Origin: an uncultured delta proteobacterium
Lineage (GTDB): Bacteria; Myxococcota; UBA727; VGSZ01
DNA length: 64,000 bases
Direction of reading: 5' to 3'
Assembly: GCA_963775425.1 (NCBI GenBank)
Contig: CAVZJB010000009.1
Span: forward strand, 172,485-236,484
Shown: positions 5,819 to 49,648 of the stretch, in pieces
How the letters are laid out: the number at the start of each line of letters is the position of its first letter
Numbering within the stretch: the first letter of the stretch is position 1
Program-made: the position numbers and the translations under genes
Notes under the pieces: generated by a model
The model's input: the letters and a program-made list of their open reading frames with translations, nothing else
What the model was told of the DNA's origin: nothing
Database searches by the model: none

Positions 5819-6805
5819 ATGACCGCCCACAACGTCGTCATCATCGGCTCGGGGCCCGCGGGGTGGACCGCGGCGCTCTACACCGCCCGCGCCAACCTCT
5901 CGCCCATCGTGTTCGAGGGCTCCGTGCCCAACCTGCCCGGCGGCCAGCTCATGATCACGAGCGACGTCGAGAATTACCCGGGCTTCCCGGAGGGCATCAA
6001 AGGCCCCGAGATGATGGACCGCTTCAAGAAGCAGGCGGAGCGCTTCGGGACCACCGTGAAGAGCGAGAACATCGCCGCCGTGGACTTCTCCAAGCGGCCG
6101 TTCACGCTCACCACCGAGGAAGGCGAGACCCTCACGGCGCACGCCGTCATCATCGCCACCGGCGCCAACGCCAAGCTCCTCGGCATCGACAAGGAGAAGG
6201 ACCTGATGTCCTCCGGCGCCGGCGTCTCCGCCTGCGCCACCTGCGACGGCGCGCTCTACAAGGGCGAGGAGCTGGCGGTGGTGGGCGGCGGCGACACGGC
6301 CATGGAGGAGGCGCTGTTCCTCACGCGCTACGCGTCCAAGGTCACCCTCGTGCACCGCCGTGAGGAGTTCCGCGCCTCCAAGGTCATGCTCGAGCGCGCG
6401 CGCAGCAACCCGAAGATCGCGTGGGAGCTCAACGCCGTCGTCGACGAGATCCTCACCGAGAAGAAGAAGATGGGCATCTTCGAGCGCGACGCGCTCGTGG
6501 CCTTGCGCCTCAAGAACACCAAGGACGGCGGCACCAAGGACATCGCCGTGGGCGGCCTCTTCGTCGCCATCGGCCACGAGCCCAACGTCTCGCTGTTCAA
6601 GGAGCACCTGAAGCTCGACGACAAGGGGTACCTCGCCGTCACGCCGGGCACCACGCGCGCCACGGCCAGGTCCGGCCAGTGGCTCGACGGGGTGTTCGCC
6701 TGCGGCGACGTGCAGGACAGCTATTACCGCCAGGCCATCACCGCCGCCGGCACAGGCTGCATGGCCGCCATCGACTGCGAGCGCTGGCTCGCCGAGCACC
6801 ACTGA
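5819..6805 (+). CDS. trxB: Thioredoxin-disulfide reductase
   Basis: VIIGSGPAGWTAALY FAD site and redox-active CATCDG. ATG at 5819, 8 nt after the bcp stop. Track ORF 5477..6805 has a spurious N-terminal extension. Confidence 0.92.
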   Translation: MTAHNVVIIGSGPAGWTAALYTARANLSPIVFEGSVPNLPGGQLMITSDVENYPGFPEGIKGPEMMDRFKKQAERFGTTVKSENIAAVDFSKRPFTLTTEEGETLTAHAVIIATGANAKLLGIDKEKDLMSSGAGVSACATCDGALYKGEELAVVGGGDTAMEEALFLTRYASKVTLVHRREEFRASKVMLERARSNPKIAWELNAVVDEILTEKKKMGIFERDALVALRLKNTKDGGTKDIAVGGLFVAIGHEPNVSLFKEHLKLDDKGYLAVTPGTTRATARSGQWLDGVFACGDVQDSYYRQAITAAGTGCMAAIDCERWLAEHH

Positions 6806-7033
6806 AAGGCTGACGAAATAAGGCTCGTGGCAGCACTCGGCGAAGCCGCCCACAAGGTGGCTCGCCGCGCGGAGTACGTGGCGAGGCACGTCGGCGCGGA
6901 CTTGAGGCGGTGAGCTTCGCGAAGGCTAGTAGACAACGTCGCCACCGCCGGAGCTCCTTTCCGCTCCGCCGTGTGGCCGTAGCACCGTCCCCTTCCGGGG
7001 GGCTCGGATCAACGGTCCATCGGGCCAGCCGTC
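6797..7033 (-). mobile_element. MITE-like intergenic repeat, copy A (short variant, inverted orientation)
   Basis: Reverse complement matches both ends of the repeats at 15762..16105 and 28561..29050 (ggaccgttgatccgagcc ... gccgagtgctgc ... gccttatttcgtcagcctttcag). The internal imperfect palindrome of the other copies is missing here. The terminal ctgaa supplies the trxB TGA stop. Confidence 0.7.
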
Positions 7034-15761: not shown

Positions 15762-16105
15762 CGAGTGGACCGTTGATCCGAGCCACCCGGAAGCGGACGG
15801 TGCTACGGCCACACGGCGGAGCGGAAAGGAGCTCCGAGCTCGGCGACGAAGACGCGCGCCGAGTTGAGCGCCGGGGCGCCGAGCTCTCCGCTCCTTTCCG
15901 CTCGCCTGAAGTCCGCGCCGACGTCGCATCGAGGCACGAACCCTGTACGTGCGCTGATAGCGGGATCACAACACCGCTCGGACCCGCCGTTTCCTCACAA
16001 CCTGCAGCGGTTCTTGCGCGCCGACGTGCCTCGCCACGTACTCCGCGCGGCGAGCCACCCTTCGCCGAGTGCTGCTGCGAGCCTTATTTTTCGTCAGCCT
16101 TCAGT
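15762..16105 (+). mobile_element. MITE-like intergenic repeat, copy B
   Basis: Shares a 5-prime block of about 120 bp (including the imperfect palindrome ggagcggaaaggagctccgagctcggcg ... cgccgagctctccgctcctttccgctc) and a 3-prime block of about 105 bp with copy C. The terminal tcag overlaps the TGA stop of the minus gene 16101..17144. Confidence 0.75.
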
Positions 16106-17144
16106 TCGCGGCGCCGGGCGTCGGCGGATCGCGCGGACCCGCGGTGCCGGCGGCGCCGTCGGGGGAGAGGCCGGCGGACACGTCGGCGCCGGCGCCGTCG
16201 AGCGGCAGGTCGTCGGTGACGCTGCCGCAGTCGTCGACGAGGACGACGTCGTCGTCGGCGGCGCTCAGGAGGAAGCTCGCGTGCAGCGCTCCCTCGCCGG
16301 GCTCCTCGTCGGCGAAGATGACCAGGAAGCCGCCGGGGTCGAGCGCCTGCGCGGGGAGCGGCCACGCGCCGAGGCCGGCGGCGTTGTCCGCGAGGCGCAT
16401 CCCGCCGAGCGAGACCGCGGCGGCGCCCGCGTTGAACAGCTCGATCCAGGGCGCGTGCTCGCCGCCCTCGTCGGTGATGCCGGCGACGTTGTCGACGAGG
16501 GCCTCGTTGACGACCACGCCGTCGGGCGTCGTCGGCACGCAGTCGCCCTCGCCTTCTCCCTCGCCTTCGCCTTCTCCTTCGCCTTCGCCCGCGCCGTCGT
16601 TGGGCGCGCCGGGCGTGGGATGTGCGAGCACGGCGAAGGCTCCGTCGACGTCGGGGATGCGCCCGAAGCTCACGTCCGCGCCGAGCGCCGGCAGCGCGAC
16701 GTCGTCGACGATCTCGCCGGCGCTCCTCAACGTGACGTGATCGCCCGAGGCCGACAGCTTGAACGCGAAGTGCGGCTCGGCGGCGCTGCCCTGGCCGGGC
16801 TCGTCGTCGCAGAACACCACGAGGAAGCCGTGGGCCGGCACCACCGCGCCGAGGCTGAAGGGCTGCGGCCCGGAGCCGCTGTCCTCGAGGCTGAACGTCC
16901 CGAGCGCGATGTCCGCGTCGGTGCCGTTGGCGAGCTCGAGCCAATCGTCGAAGTCACCCGCGGCGTCGGCGACGGTCACATCGTTCTTGGACATCAGCTC
17001 ATTGACGGAGAGCGTCGCCGCCGTTCCCCCGTCGACGGGGCCGGGTCCGCCGTCCCCGACCGCGCCCGCGTCGGGACCCGTCGACGTTCTACCGACACAA
17101 CTGACGGCAAGCGCCAGCACCGAAAATGTGATGACGGAGCGCAC
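16101..17144 (-). CDS. Secreted protein with two lamin-tail domains (LTD) joined by a (GE)n linker
   Basis: Two LTD signatures (SVNELMSKND...DWLELANG and VVNEALVDN...WIELFNAG...LGGMRL) separated by GEGEGEGEGEGEGEGD. Probable GTG start at 17144 (MRSVITFSVLALAVSC lipobox). Start is uncertain because there is no in-frame ATG. Confidence 0.6.
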   Translation of the reverse strand: MRSVITFSVLALAVSCVGRTSTGPDAGAVGDGGPGPVDGGTAATLSVNELMSKNDVTVADAAGDFDDWLELANGTDADIALGTFSLEDSGSGPQPFSLGAVVPAHGFLVVFCDDEPGQGSAAEPHFAFKLSASGDHVTLRSAGEIVDDVALPALGADVSFGRIPDVDGAFAVLAHPTPGAPNDGAGEGEGEGEGEGEGEGDCVPTTPDGVVVNEALVDNVAGITDEGGEHAPWIELFNAGAAAVSLGGMRLADNAAGLGAWPLPAQALDPGGFLVIFADEEPGEGALHASFLLSAADDDVVLVDDCGSVTDDLPLDGAGADVSAGLSPDGAAGTAGPRDPPTPGAAN

Positions 17145-28560: not shown

Positions 28561-29050
28561 GTGTTGATCCGAGCCACCCGGAAGGGGCCGGTGCTACGGC
28601 CACACGGCGGAGCGGAGAGGAGCTCCGAGCTCGGCGACGAAGACGCGCGCCGAGTTGAGCGCCGGGGCGCCGAGCTCTCCGCTGCTTTCCGCTCCGGCGG
28701 TGGCGACGTTGTCTAGCCTCCGCTGATTCCGAGCGCCCAAGCACTCGCAACTCACCGAGATTTGCGCGCCAAGATGCGGCTCGAGCGATCCACCTTGCAC
28801 GGTGAAGGGCTGACGACGAACGACGACGCCTGCCGTTTTATCGTCGGCGATCTGCGCCCGAGTCACGACGTCATCGCCAGGTTCCGCGTCGATCACGGCG
28901 CCGCGTTCGACAAGCTCCTCACCCGCCGTTTCCTCACAACCTGCAGCGGTTCTTGCGCGCCGACGTGCCTCGCCACGTACTCCGCGCGGCGAGCCACCGT
29001 GTGGCGGCTTCGCCGAGTGCTGCTACGAGCCTTGTTTTTCGTCAGCCTTC
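28561..29050 (+). mobile_element. MITE-like intergenic repeat, copy C (longest; contains a transposase-fragment insertion)
   Basis: Same 5-prime and 3-prime blocks as copy B, plus an extra internal segment of about 245 bp. The terminal tcag supplies the TGA stop of the minus gene 29049..30260. Confidence 0.75.
28831..28935 (+). pseudogene. Remnant of an IS5/IS1182-type transposase N-terminus (DUF772 / InsH_N-like)
   Basis: Translation CRFIVGDLRPSHDVIARFRVDHGAAFDKLL matches the conserved LRPDHxTIxRFR motif. Only about 35 codons remain. Confidence 0.5.
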
Positions 29051-30260
29051 AGCCCTGCGGCGGGATCTCGGCGCCCCCGCCGCTCCCGTCGCCGGCCGGG
29101 GGGTCGGCGCCGGTGGCGGGGGTGCAGGCGCCGGGGTCGCCGGCGACGAGCCCGCCCGCGAAGCCGATGTCGATGACGCCGGCGGCGGCGAGGTCGCGCG
29201 CGACGACGGCGCCGGCGACGCGCAGGTCGCCCGCCGACGCGAGCGTGCCGTGGGGGAGGTAGAGGGCGCCGGAGACGACCTCGTCGCCCGCGAGCGCGAC
29301 GCCGCGGCTGCCGTCGACGTAGAGCCGCACGGCGTCCGGCGTCGCGCCGTCGCCGAGGTGGAGCACGCCGGCGGCGGCGAGGTCTCCGCCGATGAAGAGG
29401 TCGAGCGTGGCGCCGTCGTCGAGGTCGACGTCGACGTCGCCTGCGGAGGCCACGTCGCCGGCGACGAAGAGCTCCACGGCGCCGCTCGCGTGGATCTCGA
29501 TGACGCCCGCGTGCGCGATGTCCTCGACGAAGTAGCGGCCGGCCGGCAGGTCGAGCGCCACCGCGCCCGCGCTCTCGAAGCCGGCGGGGTCGATGCCGGC
29601 GGCCGCGTCGTCGTTTTCGCTGCGCGCCTGCGCGATGAAGCCCTGCACGTCGACGTGCGTGGACGCGTCGCCGCCGCAGTCGCACGGGGGCGGGACGTCG
29701 ACGTCGCCGCGCACGACGCCGCCGGCCTGGATGCCGAGGACCCGCGCGCCCTCGGGCACGGTGAGCGTCCCGTCGATGCCGACGACGCCCGCGCCCACGG
29801 CGTCGCCGCCGATGCGCGCGTCGCCGCCGACGTCGACGACGCCGGCCTGGGCGAAGCCGGCGCCGACGTCGAGGTCCCCCTCGATGTCGTCGTCGCCGGC
29901 GCCGCTCATCCGCGCGCCGACGACGAGATCGCCCTCGATGACGGAGACCCCGGCGCGGCTCCAGTCGCCGTTGGCGGCTGCCGACGCCGGCGTCTGCGCG
30001 TCGAGGCCGTGCACGCTCAGGTCGCCGGCGAAGGCGGCGTCGCCGCACAGGCACAGGCCGAAGCCGAACGCGTCGGCGGCGAGGCCGTCGCTGCACACGG
30101 GAGCGCCGTTCGAGAGCGCGCCGACGAAGCGGTTGCCGTTCGGGGCCGCGGTGGCGCGGCCGGGGGCGCCACCGCCGGGGGGGCGCGCGCCGGGGGCGAG
30201 GTCGGCGCCGGCACAGCCGGCGAGCGGGGCGAGGACGAGGGCGACGAGGAGCAAGCGCAT
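29049..30260 (-). CDS. Lipoprotein with Gly/Asp/Ala-rich beta-helix-like repeats
   Basis: ATG at 30260 (MRLLLVALVLAPLAGC). Repeated GDL/GDV-x-V-x-G units. Cys cluster near the N-terminus. Track ORF 29049..30359 starts at a GTG further upstream. Confidence 0.6.
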   Translation of the reverse strand: MRLLLVALVLAPLAGCAGADLAPGARPPGGGAPGRATAAPNGNRFVGALSNGAPVCSDGLAADAFGFGLCLCGDAAFAGDLSVHGLDAQTPASAAANGDWSRAGVSVIEGDLVVGARMSGAGDDDIEGDLDVGAGFAQAGVVDVGGDARIGGDAVGAGVVGIDGTLTVPEGARVLGIQAGGVVRGDVDVPPPCDCGGDASTHVDVQGFIAQARSENDDAAAGIDPAGFESAGAVALDLPAGRYFVEDIAHAGVIEIHASGAVELFVAGDVASAGDVDVDLDDGATLDLFIGGDLAAAGVLHLGDGATPDAVRLYVDGSRGVALAGDEVVSGALYLPHGTLASAGDLRVAGAVVARDLAAAGVIDIGFAGGLVAGDPGACTPATGADPPAGDGSGGGAEIPPQG

Positions 30261-40925: not shown

Positions 40926-41340
40926 CAGTCGCTCCCGGCGAACAGCGGCTTCAGCCGGAACCCACCGGTGGAAGGGTCGAACAGCGCGAGCGCGGCGGCG
41001 CTGGCGCCGACCAGACCCGACCACACGAGCAGGCCCGCGCCGCCAATCTGCGCCACGGACTGCACGTGATCGTCGACGTCGTTGCGCGGCGTATTTGCGT
41101 ACGACGCCGCGAGCACGCCGGCGCCGCCGAGGGCGAGGCCGACGCTCAAAAACGCGAGCTCGCCGGGGAGGATGCTCGGGCTCACGGCGGGCCTGTCCTC
41201 GGCAGGCTTCTTGTCGGCGGCGACGGGCGGCGCGGCGTCGGCGGGCGCCGCGCACGCCGGCGTGCGGTCGACGACGCCGGCGCAAGGCGCGGGACCGGCG
41301 CCGAGGGCGAGGGCGAGGGCGACGGGGACGGCGGCGATCA
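40925..41340 (-). CDS. Small secreted/membrane hypothetical protein
   Basis: ATG at 41340 overlaps the lgt stop. 138 aa. Ala-rich hydrophobic segments. Confidence 0.45.
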
Positions 41341-42195
41341 TGCAGGGTCCGTGGCGGGCAGGGGCTCGCGCGGGTCGCGGAGCTTCCCGGCGCGGGCGAG
41401 GCGGAGGTTTCGCCGCCACACATAGATCGTGACGGGGAGGGATGCGAGGGCGACGAGCTGCGACGTCGAGACGAGCCCGTGAAACCACAGCCCGCGGTCG
41501 GTGTCGGCGCGGACCGTCTCGGTGCAAAAGCGCCACACGGCGTAGCAGACGATGTAGGCGCAGAGGGCTTCGCCGGCGAAGCGCCGCTTCTTGTACAGGA
41601 GCGCGAGCGCGACGAGGCCGACGAGACCGAACGCGGAGTCGTACAGCTCGACGGGGTGCACCGGCACCGAGCCCGACGGGTGCCCGGGCGGGAACGTCAC
41701 CGCCCAGGGCAAGGACGTGGGCACGCCGTAGCAGCAGCCGCCGAGGAAACACCCGATGCGGCCGACAAACGTCCCGAACAAGAGCCCGGGGACGCCGTAG
41801 TCGCCGAGGCCGCCCGGCTCGGGGATGCCGCGGCGGACGGTGAAGAGCCACCCCATGGCGACGGCGCCGACGACGCCGCCGTAGAAGACGTAGCCGGCTT
41901 CGAACAGCCGCGCCCAGTGCCAGGGGTCGTCCTTGAGGAGGTCGATGATGCCGCGCGCGGTGCTGCCGTCGCTGAGCACGTGGCCGCGCGCCTCGAACAG
42001 CGTGTGGAAGAGCTTGGACCCGAGGAGCGCGGAGATGACGACGACGATGGCGAGGTCAATCATGTCCCGCAGGGGCCGTCCGTCCTTGAGCCCGAGCCAG
42101 ACGCCGCAGCCGACGCCGGCGAGGTAGCCGAGCACCGTCGCCGCCACGTAGGAATGCACGGTCTGGCCGAAGGCCGAAAACAGCACCGGGTGCAC
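41338..42195 (-). CDS. lgt: Prolipoprotein diacylglyceryl transferase
   Basis: Lgt signature GRIGCFLGGCCYG and conserved HP..LY...G. Start taken as GTG at 42195 (VHPVLFSAFG). The track ORF extends further upstream into repeat sequence. Confidence 0.8.
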   Translation of the reverse strand: MHPVLFSAFGQTVHSYVAATVLGYLAGVGCGVWLGLKDGRPLRDMIDLAIVVVISALLGSKLFHTLFEARGHVLSDGSTARGIIDLLKDDPWHWARLFEAGYVFYGGVVGAVAMGWLFTVRRGIPEPGGLGDYGVPGLLFGTFVGRIGCFLGGCCYGVPTSLPWAVTFPPGHPSGSVPVHPVELYDSAFGLVGLVALALLYKKRRFAGEALCAYIVCYAVWRFCTETVRADTDRGLWFHGLVSTSQLVALASLPVTIYVWRRNLRLARAGKLRDPREPLPATDPA

Positions 42196-42210
42196 CCCGT
42201 GTCTGTAGCA

Positions 42211-42453
42211 GTTTCTTGGCGCGCTGCGCGCGCCGCGCGCTTCGCGCGGGGCCCTCCGGGCCCCCCACGCGCTTCGCGCGCGGGCCCCCCCCTTCTTCAG
42301 CTTGCGCATCGATGGGCCCGCTCGCGGAGCTCGCGCTTCCGCGAGACATGCAGCGCGCTCCTCAAAGACGCGGGACCAAGCTCGCGGCGGAGCCGCCCTC
42401 GCAGCGGACTGCGGCGGCCGGCTCCGCCGCGCTCCTTTTCGACGGCTTGACCT
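42211..42453. repeat. Inverted repeat, left arm (about 240 bp), upstream of lgt
   Basis: About 88% identical to the reverse complement of 44259..44490. Examples: cgggaccaagctcgcggcggagccgccctcgcagcggactgcggcggccggctccgccgcgctcc versus cgggacgaagctcgcggcggagccggcctcgcagcggactgcggcggccggctccgccgcgctcc. Confidence 0.8.
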
Positions 42454-42516
42454 CGTCACCCCCCCGAACGGCTCCGCCGCTACGACTGGGACGTGCCCTC
42501 GGCGTCCTCATCGGGC

Positions 42517-42658
42517 CGCGCGCCTCCTTGGCGCGCCTCCTTGGCGCGCCTCCTTGGCGCGCCTCCTTGGCGCGCCTCCTTGGCGCGCCTCCTCGGCGCG
42601 CCTCCTCGGCGCGCCTCCTTGGCGCGCCTCCTTGGTGCGCCTCCTCGGCGCGCCTCCA
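42517..42658. repeat. 13 bp tandem repeat, about 11 copies (ggcgcgcctcctt)
   Basis: Near-perfect head-to-tail copies directly downstream of the stop (42661) of the minus-strand FG-GAP gene. Confidence 0.85.
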
Positions 42659-42660
42659 CG

Positions 42661-44025
42661 TCAGCGACGCGGCGCTCTGCCTCGGTGCGGCGATCGCGCC
42701 GTGGTGATGATGGCCACGGCGGTCTTGCCCTGGTGCGGCTCGCCGACCAGGACGACGCCGGGGAGCGCCGGCATCGCCACCACATGCACAAACGCAGGGA
42801 CCTCCCACGTCGCCGTCGCATCCAGGGCGAAGCCGGCCGCAGTGCCCTTGTGGAGCGCCGCTCTCCCAGGCTCGCCCAGGTCCAGCAGGTCCGGCACGCC
42901 GTCGCCGTCGAAGTCGACGCTCACCACCGGCAGCGCGCCGTCCATGTGCCCGCCGCGCACGTCGGCCTTCGCCTGCATCGCCAGCGGTTCGCCCCCCTGG
43001 AGCCCCACCTTCACCGGGATCCGCCCGGTGACGACGACGGCCGACAGCGAGACCAGCGACGTGTCCACCTCCGCCACCACCAGCGCGCGGCCGCGTTCAC
43101 CGATGGGCGCCACGAGCCCGTCCCGCCGCCACAGCAAGCGCGGCGACGAAAACGGCCGCGCCGACGTCGACGACACCAGCCACGCCTCCGAGCGCTCGGG
43201 CACCGCGCCGCGCGTCACGCCGATCACGGCGTCGGCGCGGCCGTCCGCGTCGGCGTCGACGATGCGCACACGCAGGTCGGCGTCGCCCGCGCCGACGGTG
43301 CGCCCGAGGTCGCCGGACAGCCACGGACTCGCCTCGAGATCGCCGGCGGTGCGGCGCCACACGACCACCTCCCCCTCGTGCACGGCGATCAGGTCCGTGT
43401 CGCCGTCGGCGTCCACGTCGGCGTCGATGAGGCGCGGCCCATACAGCGACAGCGCCTCCGCGTAGCCCCGATCGGGCCGCAGCCCGCGATGCGCCCGTCC
43501 CGAGTACGCGCGCGCCTCGTGGCGCATGTGCACCAAGCGCGGCGCCTTCGCCGCCTCCCCGCCGCGCGGCGGACGCGGCACGACAAGGAGGCCGTCCACC
43601 ACAGGCAAGCGGAGCTCGCCGTCGCCGTCGCCGCGCTGGCCGCAAAGGTCCGCCACCAGCAGCGCGTCCGCGTCCGGCACCGTGAACAGCGCGTGCCCCT
43701 CGACGAGCACCTTGCCGTCGACGTCCTCGAGGCCCCGCGGTCCCGCGAACACGACGCGGCCGTCAGGGCACGCGTCCACGAAGATCGCGTCGGCCGGGAC
43801 CCGGCTGTCCGCGGCCGCCCGCCGGCCCTCCGCGTCGACGCGGACCAGGCGACGACCCCGCGCGTCCGCGCTCGTGAGCACGATGGTCCGCGGCTTCGCG
43901 AAGAAGGCATCGGAGACCGCGCCGTCGATCGCCACCACCGGCGCAGCAGCGGCGACCACGGCAGCGACGACGGCAATGACGGCGGACAGCACGCCGTCCT
44001 CTATCGCCCCGGCGCGCCCATGCAT
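42661..44025 (-). CDS. Secreted FG-GAP/VCBS-repeat protein
   Basis: ATG at 44025 (MHGRAGAIEDGVLSAVIAVVAAVVAAAAP signal-like). Repeated DxDGDGxxDL motifs (DADVDADGDTDLIAV, DADADGRADAVIGV, DFDGDGVPDLLDLG). Track ORF 42661..44346 is over-extended into non-coding repeats. Confidence 0.65.
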   Translation of the reverse strand: MHGRAGAIEDGVLSAVIAVVAAVVAAAAPVVAIDGAVSDAFFAKPRTIVLTSADARGRRLVRVDAEGRRAAADSRVPADAIFVDACPDGRVVFAGPRGLEDVDGKVLVEGHALFTVPDADALLVADLCGQRGDGDGELRLPVVDGLLVVPRPPRGGEAAKAPRLVHMRHEARAYSGRAHRGLRPDRGYAEALSLYGPRLIDADVDADGDTDLIAVHEGEVVVWRRTAGDLEASPWLSGDLGRTVGAGDADLRVRIVDADADGRADAVIGVTRGAVPERSEAWLVSSTSARPFSSPRLLWRRDGLVAPIGERGRALVVAEVDTSLVSLSAVVVTGRIPVKVGLQGGEPLAMQAKADVRGGHMDGALPVVSVDFDGDGVPDLLDLGEPGRAALHKGTAAGFALDATATWEVPAFVHVVAMPALPGVVLVGEPHQGKTAVAIITTARSPHRGRAPRR

Positions 44026-44040
44026 ACCCACGGACCAAGG

Positions 44041-44230
44041 CAAGAAAGCAGAAGGGGGAAGGGGAGAAGGCAGAAGGCAAGAAGGCAAGAAAGGCAAGAA
44101 GGCAAGAAGGCAAGAAGGCAAGAAGGCAAGAAGGCAAGAAGGCAAGAAGGCAAGAAGGCAAGAAGGCAAGAAGGCAAGAAGGCAAGAAGGCAAGAAGGCA
44201 AGAAGGCAAGAAGGCAAGAAGGCAAGAAGG
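44041..44230. repeat. 8 bp tandem repeat, about 19 perfect copies (ggcaagaa) plus about 4 degenerate copies
   Basis: Perfect octamer array at 44081-44230, starting 16 nt upstream of the FG-GAP start codon. Reads ttcttgcc on the coding strand. Confidence 0.9.
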
Positions 44231-44258
44231 TGGAGGAGCGCTGACGACGAGGCGGGGC

Positions 44259-44490
44259 GGTCAAGCCCCCCAACAGGAGCGCGGCGGAGCCGGCCGCCGC
44301 AGTCCGCTGCGAGGCCGGCTCCGCCGCGAGCTTCGTCCCGCGTCATTGAGGAGGGCGCTGCGCCTCTCGCGAAAGCGCGAGCTCCGCGAGCGGGCCGTTC
44401 GAAGGCACACCCTCAAGCGGGGGGGACCCGCGCGGAGCGCGGGGGGGCCCGGAGGGCCCGGCTGTTCGCGCGCGAAGCGCGCAAAAAAGC
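44259..44490. repeat. Inverted repeat, right arm (about 230 bp)
   Basis: Reverse complement aligns with 42211..42453 along the whole length. Confidence 0.8.
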
Positions 44491-44515
44491 AGCCCGTCGT
44501 GGGGACGACGGGCTG
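44484..44515 (-). terminator. Rho-independent terminator for the minus-strand membrane-protein gene
   Basis: Perfect 11 bp stem cagcccgtcgt / acgacgggctg with a gggg loop. Preceded by A6 on the plus strand (T6 on minus). 40 nt 3-prime of the stop at 44557. Confidence 0.6.
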
Positions 44516-44556
44516 CCACGGTCGATCGGCTGCGGGGTCGATCGGCTGCGGGGGTC

Positions 44557-45465
44557 TTAGTCGCGCGGCGGCTGGGCCAGGCCCGCGGAGGCGCCGAGGA
44601 CGGCGCCGATGCCGATGCCGAGGGGCAGGGCGTAGCTCGCGGTCTCGCTGATGAACCAGCGGGCGGCGGCGACGAGGTTGGTGTCGACCATCCACGAGGT
44701 CTCGACGGCCGAGGCCGCGCCCGCCGCCGCGAGGACCACGAGGGCGCCGACCGCGCCCATGGCGCTGCCGAGCATCGTGGAGAGCGGAACGACGCGGAAG
44801 CGCGCCGCCACGGGGTGCCCGCCGCCCAGGGCGTGGCTGGCCTCGAGGAGGCGGATGGCCATGCGCTCGGCCACGATGCGGCTGGTCAGGCCGATGACGA
44901 GGACGTCGAGGCCGAAGACAAAGGGAGCCGTCCAGTCGTCGCCCCAGGTGTAGGTCTCGGGGTGAAGGAGCGGGAGCGCGTTGCCGGCGACGAGGGCGAG
45001 CACCGTGCCGAGCACCGCCAGGCGCCGGACGTGGTGCAGGCGCAGCGGATCCGACGCCACGATGCCGGCGAGGCGGCCGCCACCCATGGCGAAGTCATGG
45101 GAGGAGTACGCGTTCTCGACGCGGATGCGCTGGCGCTGGAGCACCGAACGCGCGTCCGCGCCGCGGCCGACCAGGGTGCACAGCACCGCCAGGCCGGACG
45201 CCTCGAGCCCGCGCAAGAGCAGGCCGATCTCCCGGAACAAGCCCAGGCGGGACGGCGCCGCCACCGCGAAGGTCATCACGGGGATGCCCACGACGACGAA
45301 CATCGTCACCATCGGCACTCTCGCGGCCGGGGAGGCCATGAGGCCGAACAGCGCCCCCAACATCATCACCGACGTGAACAAACACCGTTCGCGCCCGCAG
45401 GCGAATCCGGTGGAGCACGGGGTGTCTTGTGGCGTGAAGCCCGAGTAGCGCATCGCTGACCTCAT
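44557..45465 (-). CDS. Polytopic membrane protein, hypothetical
   Basis: Multiple hydrophobic helices. ATG at 45465 or 45453. No recognisable family. Confidence 0.5.
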   Translation of the reverse strand: MRSAMRYSGFTPQDTPCSTGFACGRERCLFTSVMMLGALFGLMASPAARVPMVTMFVVVGIPVMTFAVAAPSRLGLFREIGLLLRGLEASGLAVLCTLVGRGADARSVLQRQRIRVENAYSSHDFAMGGGRLAGIVASDPLRLHHVRRLAVLGTVLALVAGNALPLLHPETYTWGDDWTAPFVFGLDVLVIGLTSRIVAERMAIRLLEASHALGGGHPVAARFRVVPLSTMLGSAMGAVGALVVLAAAGAASAVETSWMVDTNLVAAARWFISETASYALPLGIGIGAVLGASAGLAQPPRD

Positions 45466-45642
45466 CGTGGTGAACCTGATCTCATCGACCGACAACAAGT
45501 GTATCGGCCCGGTTCATCCCCGGCAAAAGCGGGCCGGAGTGTCTCACGCCGGCAGCGTGAGCCCGGTCAACGCCCTCGGTCGACGGGAGGAGGGGGCCGG
45601 AGGCTCGACTTTTCGAGGCCGGATGGCCGAGACTCCCGCTCC

Positions 45643-48574: not shown

Positions 48575-49486
48575 TCACCGCTCGACGAGGGGCAGCCGGC
48601 GCTGGCGGCGCTCATCGTCGATGCGCTTGTGCGCGATGGTGCAGTAGTCGCCGTCGCGCTCAACCCCCACCCAGTGACGGTCGAGGCGGTCGGAGGCGAG
48701 CAAGGTCGAACCGGACCCGGCGAAGCAGTCGAGGATGCGGTCCCCCCGGTTCGTCCCCGCGAGGACGATCCGCTCCATCACGCGCAGCGGCTTCTGCGAC
48801 GGGTGCTTGCCGTGCACCCTCTCGCGCGCCGGCGTCACCGGGATCTCCCAGAAGTTGCGCATCTGCTTGCCGCCGTTGAGCGCCTTCATCGAGTCGTAGT
48901 TGAAGGTCCAGTTCTTCGCCTTCTTGTTGGTGTTGTTGCACAGCCACAGGATCTGCTCCGTGCTCTCGGTGAGCATGCGACAGGTGATGTTGGGCTGGGC
49001 GTTCGGCTTCGCCCAGATGATGCTGTTCACGATGCGCAGATCCAGGCGAGCGGCAATGGCACCAATCGTATAGATATTGTGATAGCTCCCGAAGATGAAG
49101 ATGTTGCCGTTCTCCTTGGTGGTGCGGCACACCTCCTTGAGCCATGCGGCGGTGAACTCCTCGTACTCGTCGTGGGTAAACCGATCCCACTCGCTGTCGA
49201 TGGTCACGTGCGAGGAGAACGCCCACGACAGACCCTTTCTGTCGCGAGCAATATTGTATGGTGGATCGGTGATACATGCATGGAAATACCGGTTGCTCCA
49301 TTGCGACAAGGTCTCCAGGCAATTGCCATGGTAGAGCTGGTTGGGCAGCGGACTGACCTTGTCGCTCCCTCGCTTCGGCAGCGTCGAGATCGATCCCGTC
49401 GAAAGCGGACGGGCCACGGGCTCGTACGGCCGCTCGAGATCGAGCGGCTCCACTTCGCCGGCCTGGAACTTCGCCATCGCCACCAT
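48575..49486 (-). CDS. Site-specific DNA methyltransferase, beta-class (motif IV DPPY before motif I FAGSGS), probably N6-adenine
   Basis: ITDPPYNI and LDCFAGSGSTLLA. ATG at 49486. GC content visibly lower than flanks. Stop directly abuts the K+ channel stop, so there is zero intergenic space. Confidence 0.85.
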   Translation of the reverse strand: MVAMAKFQAGEVEPLDLERPYEPVARPLSTGSISTLPKRGSDKVSPLPNQLYHGNCLETLSQWSNRYFHACITDPPYNIARDRKGLSWAFSSHVTIDSEWDRFTHDEYEEFTAAWLKEVCRTTKENGNIFIFGSYHNIYTIGAIAARLDLRIVNSIIWAKPNAQPNITCRMLTESTEQILWLCNNTNKKAKNWTFNYDSMKALNGGKQMRNFWEIPVTPARERVHGKHPSQKPLRVMERIVLAGTNRGDRILDCFAGSGSTLLASDRLDRHWVGVERDGDYCTIAHKRIDDERRQRRLPLVER

Positions 49487-49648
49487 CCTTCACCCTCCGA
49501 TCGCACGCACACATCCGCCGCGAGCGCAAGCTCGCGAGGATCCTTGGGTTCACGTCGTCGTCACGAAGGCGACCTCGTCGCCTCTTGTCCTCTGCTGCCG
49601 ACTATGGAGCCAACGTGCGACCGCTCCAAGTTTTCCGCCGAACGAATT

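What the first reader, a model, noticed from the sequence alone, without database searches (positions are those of the whole stretch)
44041..44230. Perfect 8-mer (ggcaagaa) tandem array in the 5-prime leader of the FG-GAP gene
About 19 identical octamers in a 70% GC genome cannot occur by chance and mark a slipped-strand hotspot. The unit length is not a multiple of 3 and the array lies outside the CDS. Copy-number change would therefore alter promoter-to-start spacing or leader structure rather than reading frame. The track ORF that translates it (LLAFLPSC repeats) is almost certainly not real.
Basis: seen in the sequence. Interest (0 to 1): 0.6.

Follow-up and report, generated by a model that had tools for sequence, protein, structure and literature searches.

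The report
Octamer repeat upstream of flipped gene
A real, near-perfect 8-base tandem repeat sits just upstream of the promoter (not in the leader) of a secreted FG-GAP protein gene that, unlike in all eight relatives, has been flipped and is bracketed by a 230-base inverted duplication with a second repeat array at the mirror position; it is a plausible but untested expression "dial".

Summary
The array is real: period 8 at 44037-44230, 24.5 units, with a perfect 140-nt run (17.5 units) and 20 exact GGCAAGAA copies. It is non-coding. GC3 is 0.60 in the ORF extension that would translate it, against 0.92 in the CDS, and homologues are 412-458 aa.

The "5-prime leader" reading is probably wrong. 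Eight relatives share a TTGCAC-N16/17-TAGNAC promoter ending 5-6 nt before the GTG start. The window keeps a weaker copy (ATGCAT-N16-TAGAGG-N5-GTG 43992). The array then lies at about -45 to -238, upstream of the core promoter.

- The gene is inverted relative to lgt and yscJ in 8 of 8 relatives.
- It is bracketed by a ~230-nt inverted duplication (42225-42452 / 44259-44483, 85-90% identical).
- A second array (13-mer x10.8, 42518-42657) lies at the mirror position.

Two relatives carry unrelated arrays abutting the same -35.

Best reading: slippage-grown VNTRs at the inner edges of an old inversion-plus-duplication scar, possibly tuning promoter geometry as the nadA tract does. Copy-number variation and any effect on expression could not be tested, because no second genome of this species is available.

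The parts
44037..44230 (-). Octamer tandem array. It reads GGCAAGAA on the + strand and CTTCTTGC on the gene's sense strand. There are 24.5 units: a perfect run at 44091-44230 (17.5 units) and degenerate units at 44037-44090 on the promoter side. It spans about -45 to -238 relative to GTG 43992.
   Evidence: the strand has no self-structure
43998..44025 (-). Inferred core promoter of the FG-GAP gene: -35 ATGCAT (44025-44020), 16-nt spacer, -10 TAGAGG (44003-43998), then 5 nt to GTG 43992. The annotated ATG at 44025 lies inside the -35.
   Evidence: footprint TTGCAC-N16/17-TAGNAC-N5/6-GTGCTC in the relatives; PWM rank 1257 of 127910; no better sigma-70 consensus site upstream
42661..43992 (-). 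FG-GAP_3 repeat protein CDS with an N-terminal signal peptide. The probable start is GTG 43992 (the gene callers' start is ATG 44025); the stop is 42661-42663. It is inverted relative to its orientation in all eight relatives.
   Evidence: Pfam PF13517, 2.3e-09; homologues; N-terminal alignment; GC3 0.92; synteny
42518..42657 (-). Second tandem array: a 13-mer x10.8. It reads GCGCGCCTCCTTG on the + strand and CAAGGAGGCGCGC on the sense strand, which contains AAGGAGG. It begins 4 nt after the FG-GAP stop, at the mirror-image position to the octamer array at the inner edge of the other repeat arm.
42225..42452 (-). Arm A of the inverted duplication. It is a hairpin-rich, GC-rich element ending about 30 nt upstream of the lgt start (GTG 42195).
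   Evidence: 144-nt core 90% complementary to arm B, 229 nt at 85%
44259..44483 (+). Arm B of the inverted duplication. It lies between the octamer array and the terminator of the upstream membrane-protein gene. It contains a 16-bp GC hairpin (DNA fold z = -4.4).
44230..44241 (+). GTGGAGGAGCGC, a single copy of the 13-mer-like motif directly beside the octamer array on its element side. It matches the first 13-mer unit (GTGGAGGCGCGC, 11 of 12) that directly follows the FG-GAP stop in arm A.
   Evidence: read from the sequence; suggestive only
44488..44517 (-). Intrinsic terminator (13-bp stem followed by TTTTTT) of the upstream 313-aa membrane-protein gene (44557-45498). It makes read-through into the FG-GAP gene unlikely.
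41338..42195 (-). lgt (prolipoprotein diacylglyceryl transferase). It is now downstream of FG-GAP and points the same way; in all relatives the two genes are divergent.
   Evidence: Pfam PF01790, 4.3e-43; start inferred from homologues

Best explanation
[quoted passage not shown] It is one half of a larger rearrangement scar.

Proposed history: in the ancestor, as in all eight relatives, lgt and the FG-GAP gene were divergent. In this lineage the FG-GAP CDS and its core promoter were inverted, and the spacer between the two promoters was duplicated in inverted orientation. The order lgt-B-C-E became lgt-B-C'-B'-E, so both genes kept their upstream region. Each copy of the spacer carried a purine-rich motif (CAAGRAGG / GTGGAGGMGCGC) at its inner edge, and slipped-strand mispairing later expanded it independently. 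It became (CAAGGAGGCGCGC)x10.8 next to the gene's stop and (CAAGAAGG)x24.5 next to its -35.

Likely effect (inferred, not shown): the tract begins about 11 nt upstream of the -35. Gaining or losing units would therefore change the distance and helical phase between the core promoter and whatever binds the hairpin-rich element upstream (8 bp is about 274 degrees of rotation, so roughly a 4-unit period). It also places an unusually AT-rich, unstructured tract at the UP-element position. This is the nadA-type mode of expression tuning, not a frame or leader switch.

Shown: the anatomy, the non-coding status, the inversion relative to relatives and the inverted duplication. Inferred: the promoter position, the order of events, hypermutability and any effect on expression.
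For: - Array anatomy and perfection.
- Non-coding status: GC3 0.60 against 0.92, homologue lengths, N-terminal alignment.
- Inversion: in 8 of 8 independent relatives FG-GAP is on the opposite strand to lgt and the same strand as yscJ, while the window has it flipped.
- Inverted duplication exactly bracketing the flipped gene: the longest inverted repeat in the window, 144 nt at 90% and 229 nt at 85%.
- Not a dispersed repeat: no further copy in the window, only 6 isolated hits in unrelated taxa (the number chance predicts for a 20-mer) in 185,579 species genomes, 0 in JGI metagenomes, none in phages and one 45-nt marginal hit in plasmids.
- Promoter footprint between array and start. No better promoter candidate upstream.
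- Same position, unrelated units in relatives: L009 (CATCGA)x6.2 ends 1-3 nt before its -35, and L010 (GTCCTGCG)x3.9 ends 2 nt before its -35. Three of the four non-triplet arrays in 129 kb flank this gene.
- Array units related in the orientation the inverted repeat predicts: 8 of 9 matches against 4 of 9, p about 0.02-0.08.
- Arms are 10-15% diverged but the array is perfect, so the expansion is much younger than the duplication.
- Precedents: the nadA TAAA tract upstream of the core promoter acts through spacing of distal elements and UP-like contacts (PMC2791445). Inversions with an inverted duplication at one breakpoint have a median duplicate length of 321 bp and about 88% identity (PMC1885836).
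Against: - The window's -35 is degraded (ATGCAT). Its PWM score is only -0.8 bits (top 1%, not top 0.01%), so the real promoter could lie elsewhere and the array could be transcribed.
- There is no TSS, read or strain data, so hypermutability and any effect on expression are untested.
- The relatives' upstream arrays are short (4-6 units) and occur in only 2 of 8, and the enrichment is only about p = 0.05 after correcting for how the window was chosen.
- The relatives' intergenic DNA cannot be aligned to the element, so it is not shown that the duplicated spacer was ancestrally single-copy at this place.
- The similarity between the two array units is marginal.
- Only 64 kb of a 394-kb contig could be searched for further copies of the element.
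Confidence: 0.55

Rival explanations
1. Neutral scar. The two arrays are selectively irrelevant microsatellites that happened to expand in slippage-prone, purine-rich DNA left at the junctions of an old inversion and duplication. Copy number may drift but does not affect expression.
For: (GGCAAGAA)n is a generic microsatellite motif: it occurs at 4 or more copies in 51 unrelated metagenome contigs with flank GC of 35-71%. The same intergenic region also has a 16-nt tandem duplication at 44520-44553, so the locus is simply slippage-prone. No regulator site, structure or known RNA family is associated with the array.
Against: Unrelated arrays abut the same -35 in two other lineages, and arrays are concentrated around this one gene. 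The window's array, at 17.5 perfect units, is longer than any of the 51 metagenome examples (at most 14).
Confidence: 0.3
2. The array lies in the transcribed 5' leader, with a promoter in or beyond element B. Unit number would then alter leader length or structure, or the binding of a factor to a CU-rich (CUUCUUGC)n RNA. This would resemble the 5'-UTR AGAT repeat of Moraxella uspA2 or the 5'-UTR SSRs of Haemophilus.
For: The window's copy of the conserved promoter has a poor -35, so transcription might start further upstream. An AGAGGA Shine-Dalgarno-like sequence precedes GTG 43992, which a leaderless mRNA would not need. 5'-UTR SSR phase variation is documented (PMC12721329 abstract; uspA2 from my own knowledge).
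Against: The conserved promoter footprint lies between the array and the start in all 8 relatives and is recognisable in the window at the exact homologous distance. No sigma-70-like site reaching 7 of 12 occurs anywhere on the sense strand at 43990-44530. A strong terminator at 44517-44488 blocks read-through from the upstream gene. The AGAGGA overlaps the -10 TAGAGG.
Confidence: 0.15
3. Active invertible gene switch. The 1.8-kb segment between the two arms flips back and forth in the population by recombination between the arms, toggling FG-GAP between being co-directional with lgt and divergent from it.
For: Inverted repeats bracket exactly the segment that is flipped relative to 8 of 8 relatives. 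The arms share a perfectly identical 40-nt block.
Against: No recombinase or invertase gene lies within about 12 kb on either side. The arms are only 85-90% identical, which argues against frequent recombination or gene conversion between them. Because the arms are mirror copies, the gene sees the same upstream sequence in either orientation, so flipping would not give an obvious on/off switch.
Confidence: 0.08
4. Mobile-element origin. The 230-nt arms are terminal repeats or MITE copies of a transposable element that carries or has trapped the FG-GAP gene, and the arrays are part of the element.
For: The layout resembles a composite element: inverted terminal copies flanking a single gene.
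Against: No transposase is present. No other copy was found in the window, in the genome, metagenome or phage collections, or (apart from one 45-nt marginal hit) in plasmids. The gene is a syntenic orthologue at its ancestral chromosomal position in all relatives, not an insertion.
Confidence: 0.04
5. Assembly artefact. The array, its copy number or the gene orientation was produced by the assembler.
For: The perfect run is 140 nt, near common k-mer and read limits. Several (GGCAAGAA)n arrays in metagenome contigs lie at contig ends, which shows that such arrays trouble assemblers.
Against: The array has a degenerate, unique promoter-proximal part and unique flanks on both sides. The arms share at most 40 identical bases, far too few to make the orientation ambiguous. 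The second array is internally polymorphic (TTG and TCG units).
Confidence: 0.04

Closest known systems
Neisseria meningitidis nadA promoter TAAA tract (Metruccio et al. 2009, PMC2791445)
   Same: [quoted passage not shown] The tract overlaps the position of UP-like alpha-subunit contacts. The unit number changes the spacing between distal elements and the promoter, and so tunes transcription rather than shifting a reading frame.
   Different: The unit here is 8 nt, not 4, and the tract is far longer (194 nt). No repressor, operators or IHF site are identified. The organism is a high-GC, free-living, Myxococcota-like bacterium (my inference), not a small-genome host-adapted pathogen. Variation is not demonstrated.
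5'-UTR simple-sequence repeats (Moraxella catarrhalis uspA2 AGAT repeat, from my own knowledge; Haemophilus influenzae 5'-UTR SSR, PMC12721329)
   Same: These are non-coding repeats close to the start codon of a surface-protein gene, and the unit number affects expression.
   Different: Those tracts are transcribed. Here the conserved promoter footprint lies between the tract and the start codon, so the tract is probably not in the mRNA.
Inversions with inverted duplication of breakpoint sequence (staggered-break model, Ranz et al. 2007, PMC1885836). Bacterial tandem-inversion duplications formed by template switching at quasi-palindromes are a possible alternative route (my own knowledge).
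   Same: A segment is inverted relative to outgroups and flanked by inverted copies of non-repetitive flanking DNA. The duplicate size (about 230-290 nt against a median of 321 bp) and divergence (85-90% against about 88%) are comparable, and duplication at only one breakpoint is common.
   Different: That system is described in Drosophila chromosomes, not bacteria. Here the inverted unit is a single gene with its core promoter, and both junctions have since grown tandem arrays.
Programmed invertible segments (Hin/Gin/Cin-type segments, gut-bacterial invertons)
   Same: Inverted repeats flank a segment whose orientation differs between genomes.
   Different: No invertase is nearby, the arms are long and diverged rather than short and conserved, and the symmetry gives no obvious on/off logic.
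VNTR/MLVA loci of high-GC bacteria (for example mycobacterial MIRU and Burkholderia VNTRs; my own knowledge)
   Same: These are intergenic tandem arrays with units of about 6-50 nt and strain-variable copy number, mostly without a proven function.
   Different: This locus is defined by its position abutting a promoter and by a mirror array across an inverted gene. Strain variability is unknown here.

Membership tests
SSR-driven phase-variable (contingency) locus | An uninterrupted tract of identical short units, long enough to slip | tested here: met
   17.5 perfect octamers over 140 nt
SSR-driven phase-variable (contingency) locus | The tract is placed within a CDS or promoter, so that a length change alters expression | tested here: inconclusive
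   It is outside the CDS. It lies 11 nt upstream of the inferred -35, a position where an effect is possible (nadA) but not obligatory.
SSR-driven phase-variable (contingency) locus | Tract length is polymorphic among cells or strains, with reversible expression states | not testable with these tools
   The only genome of this species is the source contig. The nearest relative is 67% identical at the protein level, and no reads are available.
nadA-type distal-promoter repeat | The repeat tract lies upstream of the core promoter | tested here: met
   Shown by phylogenetic footprint only: the promoter at 44025-43998 lies between the tract and GTG 43992. No TSS mapping.
nadA-type distal-promoter repeat | Regulator operators or UP-like contacts flank the tract, and their spacing matters | not testable with these tools
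   A structured element lies upstream, but no binding protein or site could be identified.
5'-UTR (leader) repeat | The tract lies between the transcription start and the start codon | tested here: inconclusive
   The evidence leans against it: a conserved promoter lies downstream of the tract, no promoter-like site lies upstream, and a terminator lies upstream. The TSS is not mapped.
Programmed invertible segment / inverton | Inverted repeats flank the segment | tested here: met
   42225-42452 / 44259-44483
Programmed invertible segment / inverton | A site-specific recombinase is encoded nearby | tested here: not met
   Pfam scans of 14 neighbouring proteins within about 12 kb found none
Programmed invertible segment / inverton | Both orientations are present in one population | not testable with these tools
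   No reads available
Inversion with breakpoint inverted duplication | The segment is inverted relative to outgroups | tested here: met
   8 of 8 relatives
Inversion with breakpoint inverted duplication | The flanking inverted copies derive from ancestrally single-copy local sequence, not a dispersed repeat | tested here: inconclusive
   No other copies were found anywhere searched. The relatives have one short spacer there, but it cannot be aligned to the element.
MITE / IS / composite transposon | Multiple dispersed copies and/or a transposase | tested here: not met
   Only the two copies exist and there is no transposase. The rest of the 394-kb contig was not available.
CRISPR array | Repeats are separated by unique spacers | tested here: not met
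   The units are head-to-tail with no spacers

The most novel reading that the evidence does not exclude
The FG-GAP/lgt locus is a true contingency locus in a free-living, high-GC, Myxococcota-like bacterium. In this reading, hypermutable arrays of unrelated sequence are repeatedly recruited to the same position abutting the -35 of this secreted-protein gene in different lineages (window, L009, L010). In this lineage, the octamer array upstream and the Shine-Dalgarno-like 13-mer array between FG-GAP and lgt would jointly set the expression of FG-GAP and its coupling to lgt, possibly together with occasional re-inversion between the arms.
Probability: 0.12. Interest if true: 0.7.

Novelty: new member of a known kind. 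Interest (0 to 1): 0.42.

Why it matters
SSR-driven expression switching is regarded as a trait of small-genome, host-adapted pathogens (abstract of PMC11475388). A long, perfect octamer tract abutting the promoter of a secreted FG-GAP protein gene, in an uncultured, large-genome, 73%-GC environmental bacterium, would extend that strategy to a very different biology if it proved variable. The unrelated arrays at the same promoter position in two related lineages add to that possibility.

Independently of function, the locus is a clean bacterial example of a single-gene inversion that duplicated the shared divergent-promoter spacer, so that both genes kept their upstream DNA. That pattern has been documented mainly in Drosophila.

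Practically, the work corrects two things: the annotated start codon (the ATG at 44025 is part of the -35, and GTG 43992 is the probable start) and the spurious repeat-translating ORF.

Tried and rejected
- Known RNA families: an Rfam E-value scan of 41800-44800 and a gathering-threshold scan of the whole window found nothing. There was one sub-threshold Acido-Lenti-1 hit on the terminator. No tRNAs were found.
- Generic sigma-70 scans: no site at the tool's threshold, and nothing reaching 7 of 12 on the sense strand.
- Looking for the element elsewhere: a 20-mer in 185,579 species genomes gave 6 isolated hits in unrelated taxa, the number chance predicts. A 24-mer in JGI metagenomes gave 0. 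Low-stringency blastn against the window and all relatives gave only the two arms. Phages gave none and plasmids one marginal 45-nt hit.
- Retrieving the source contig: exact-protein look-ups failed for the window protein, a neighbour and P0001. The cluster look-up gave no accession. No same-species sequence exists in the protein collection (best non-self hit 67%), so strain comparison of copy number was impossible.
- Octamer array in metagenomes: 51 contigs, all unrelated in flanks and GC, so it is a generic motif and not a family.
- Recombinase search within about 12 kb: none.
- MAFFT alignment of the promoter regions was uninformative. It was replaced by an explicit motif scan and a PWM.
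- Hairpin-driven slippage: rejected, because the array strand is unstructured.
- Coding potential of the array on either strand: rejected on GC3 and homologue lengths.

Full report
OBSERVATION

The array exists as described. TRF reports a period-8 array at 44037-44230 with 24.5 copies, 93% matches and the highest score in the window. A direct count gives a perfect period-8 run at 44091-44230 (140 nt, 17.5 units). There are 20 exact GGCAAGAA copies inside the array, against three on the + strand and none on the - strand in the remaining 64 kb. The units nearest the gene (44037-44090) are degenerate and the distal ones are identical. Local GC drops to 0.55 in a ~0.74 background. This cannot be chance. 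One caveat is that a 140-nt perfect run is close to the resolving limit of short-read assemblers (my own knowledge, not tested). The assembled copy number may therefore be inexact, although the unique flanks and the degenerate proximal part show that the array itself is real.

CODING STATUS AND START CODON

The gene on the - strand is an FG-GAP_3 repeat protein (PF13517, 2.3e-09). The long ORF that would translate the array (42661-44346) is not real. GC3 is 0.92 in the CDS but 0.60 in the 5' extension. An identical database protein is called at 454 aa, and the near-full-length homologues are 412-458 aa. The homologues start with a short signal peptide that aligns to residues ~12-20 of the 454-aa call.

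PROMOTER POSITION: NOT A LEADER

The upstream regions of eight independent relatives cannot be aligned overall, but they share one footprint: TTGCAC, 16-17 nt, TAG(N)AC, 5-6 nt, GTGCTC. L011 has 10 nt between the -10 and the start, and L066 reads TTGGTG-N17-TACGCG-N6-GTGATC (sequences; scan). A -10 ending 5-6 nt before the start codon implies a leaderless or near-leaderless mRNA.

At exactly the homologous distance, the window reads ATGCAT (44025-44020), 16 nt, TAGAGG (44003-43998), 5 nt, GTG (43992). The annotated ATG at 44025 is therefore part of the -35, and GTG 43992 is the likely start. On a weight matrix built only from the relatives, this pre-specified site ranks 1257th of 127,910 positions (top 1%). 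The -10 is good and the -35 is degraded. Two relatives (L007, L066) score lower in leave-one-out.

Three further observations fit this placement:
- No sigma-70-like site is found by the tool scan.
- Nothing reaches 7 of 12 matches on the sense strand between 43990 and 44530.
- A strong intrinsic terminator (44517-44488) ends the upstream gene.

I conclude, with roughly two-thirds confidence, that the array lies at about -45 to -238, upstream of the core promoter. Unit changes would then alter upstream-element-to-promoter geometry, not promoter-to-start spacing or leader structure.

THE LARGER STRUCTURE

- Second array. A 13-mer x10.8 (GCGCGCCTCCTTG on the + strand, CAAGGAGGCGCGC on the sense strand) lies at 42518-42657 and starts 4 nt after the FG-GAP stop.
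- Inverted duplication. Outside both arrays lie inverted copies of a ~230-nt GC-rich element, at 42225-42452 and 44259-44483. The core is 144 nt at 90% identity, or 229 nt at 85%. This is the longest inverted repeat in the window.
- Element structure. The element folds strongly (DNA MFE -94.5 kcal/mol, z = -4.4, with a 16-bp GC hairpin). The array strand has no self-structure.
- Order on the - strand. Membrane-protein gene, terminator, arm B, octamer array, core promoter, FG-GAP CDS, 13-mer array, arm A, lgt.

THE GENE IS INVERTED

Eight independent relatives were examined: L007, L008, L009, L010, L011, L063, L064/L065 and L066, at 58-67% protein identity. In all of them the neighbourhood is conserved: response regulator, PEGA protein, lgt, then FG-GAP, a ~295-aa membrane protein, YscJ/FliF, a 337-aa FliG-like protein and TrkA. 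In all of them FG-GAP lies on the strand opposite to lgt and the same strand as yscJ. In the window, lgt, the membrane-protein gene and yscJ keep their orientations, but FG-GAP is flipped. The flipped segment is exactly the one bounded by the inverted arms. The arms share at most 40 identical bases, so the assembled orientation is not ambiguous.

ORIGIN

The element is not a dispersed or mobile repeat as far as can be tested:
- There is no further copy in the window.
- A 20-mer search of 185,579 species genomes gave only six isolated hits in unrelated taxa, the number chance predicts.
- There were none in the JGI metagenomes or phages, and one marginal 45-nt hit in plasmids.
- No transposase or recombinase lies within about 12 kb.

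The simplest history is lgt-B-C-E becoming lgt-B-C'-B'-E. That is an inversion of C (the core promoter plus CDS) accompanied by an inverted duplication of the inter-promoter spacer B. Both divergent genes thereby retained their upstream DNA.

This pattern is documented for Drosophila inversions and attributed there to staggered breaks. Those duplicates have a median length of 321 bp and about 88% identity, and are often present at one breakpoint only (PMC1885836). Template switching at the element's long palindromes, the tandem-inversion-duplication route, is an alternative that I cannot distinguish (my own knowledge).

The arms are 10-15% diverged, so the event is old and the arms are not being homogenised. 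That argues against frequent flipping.

ORIGIN OF THE ARRAYS

Read in the arm's own orientation, both arrays are purine-rich and their units are related. CAAGAAGG(C) and CAAGGAGG(C) match at 8 of 9 positions, against 4 of 9 in the opposite orientation (p about 0.02-0.08).

The octamer array is directly followed on its element side by GTGGAGGAGCGC (44230-44241). This matches the first 13-mer unit (GTGGAGGCGCGC) next to the stop codon at 11 of 12 positions (read).

This is suggestive but not conclusive. It points to the inner edge of the duplicated spacer carrying a purine-rich motif that slipped-strand mispairing then expanded independently in the two copies. The octamer units are perfect while the arms are diverged, which shows the expansion is recent.

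RECURRENCE IN RELATIVES

In L009, (CATCGA)x6.2 ends 1-3 nt before the -35. In L010, (GTCCTGCG)x3.9 ends 2 nt before the -35. The other six relatives have no comparable array.

A census of 129 kb (the window plus eight loci) found only four arrays whose unit is not a multiple of three. Three of them flank this gene. After allowing for the way the window was chosen, this enrichment is only about p = 0.05 by my rough estimate. It is a hint of contingency-locus behaviour, not proof.

The octamer motif itself is generic. (GGCAAGAA) at 4 or more copies occurs in 51 unrelated metagenome contigs, at 4-14 perfect units and flank GC of 35-71%.

MECHANISM

Shown: a perfect, unstructured, non-coding octamer tract abutting the region homologous to a conserved promoter, inside an inversion-duplication scar.

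Inferred: the tract gains and loses units by slipped-strand mispairing. Each 8-bp step moves and rotates (by about 274 degrees) the structured upstream element relative to the core promoter. The tract also supplies the most AT-rich DNA of the region at the UP-element position.

The closest worked example is meningococcal nadA. [quoted passage not shown] Membership in that class cannot be established, because no regulator, operator, TSS or length polymorphism is available.

VERDICT

The array is non-coding, the ORF is spurious and the tract is a plausible slippage substrate. The array is probably upstream of the promoter rather than in a leader, and it is best understood as part of an inverted, duplication-flanked single-gene rearrangement.

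As a kind of feature, a promoter-associated VNTR, it is a new member of a known kind. Its setting in a free-living, high-GC, Myxococcota-like MAG (my inference from the sigma-54 activator with FHA domain, Ser/Thr kinase and PEGA genes and the 'Deltaproteobacteria bacterium' names) is moderately interesting, as are the mirror arrays and the recurrence in relatives. Function and variability remain untested.

Noticed in passing
window 6801-7019, 15766-16113, 28563-29062: A second, unrelated dispersed repeat family has three copies in the window. The blocks are 65-142 nt at 85-97% identity, and one copy is inverted relative to the other two. There is no Rfam match and no tRNA. It may be a shared 5' region of paralogous genes or a regulatory element.
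   Followed up: partly
window 44520-44553: A perfect 16-nt tandem duplication (GGTCGATCGGCTGCGG x2.1) lies between the terminator hairpin and the stop codon of the 313-aa membrane-protein gene. It is a third tandem repeat in the same intergenic region.
   Followed up: no
window 43990-44025: The database start codon of the FG-GAP protein (ATG 44025, 454 aa) is probably wrong. That ATG lies inside the inferred -35 hexamer, and GTG 43992 matches the homologues' start and signal peptide.
   Followed up: yes
L007-L011, L063-L066 (upstream of the FG-GAP orthologues); window 42196-42215 (upstream of lgt): The clade seems to use leaderless or near-leaderless transcripts. The FG-GAP promoter's -10 ends 5-6 nt before the GTG start in most relatives. 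lgt also shows a TA-containing hexamer 6-8 nt before its GTG in the window, L009 and L011.
   Followed up: partly
window 42518-42657 (- strand): Each unit of the 13-mer array contains a perfect Shine-Dalgarno sequence (AAGGAGG) on the sense strand. Any FG-GAP transcript reading through towards lgt would therefore carry about ten tandem ribosome-binding-like sites with no start codon after them. The octamer array's sense strand (CCUUCUUG) is nearly complementary to it.
   Followed up: no
L066 7491-7553; L063 1452-1475: Relatives carry other short-unit arrays. L066 has an 11-mer x5.7 (GTGATGAGCAC) running into the end of the contig. L063 has an 8-mer x3 (ACGTCGTC) starting at the FG-GAP stop codon, the same position as the window's 13-mer array.
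   Followed up: no
L012, L025, L036, L046, L052, L058 (metagenome contigs): Several of the 51 unrelated (GGCAAGAA)n arrays sit at the very end of their contigs. This shows that such arrays often break short-read assemblies and that assembled copy numbers are lower bounds.
   Followed up: no
window 48578-49489 (- strand); L064 10059-10994: An N6/N4 DNA methyltransferase gene (PF01555), with no obvious restriction partner seen in the scanned neighbours, lies in the same neighbourhood in the window (after TrkA) and in relative L064 (after the FliG-like gene). Its first-codon-position GC (0.55) is low for this genome.
   Followed up: no
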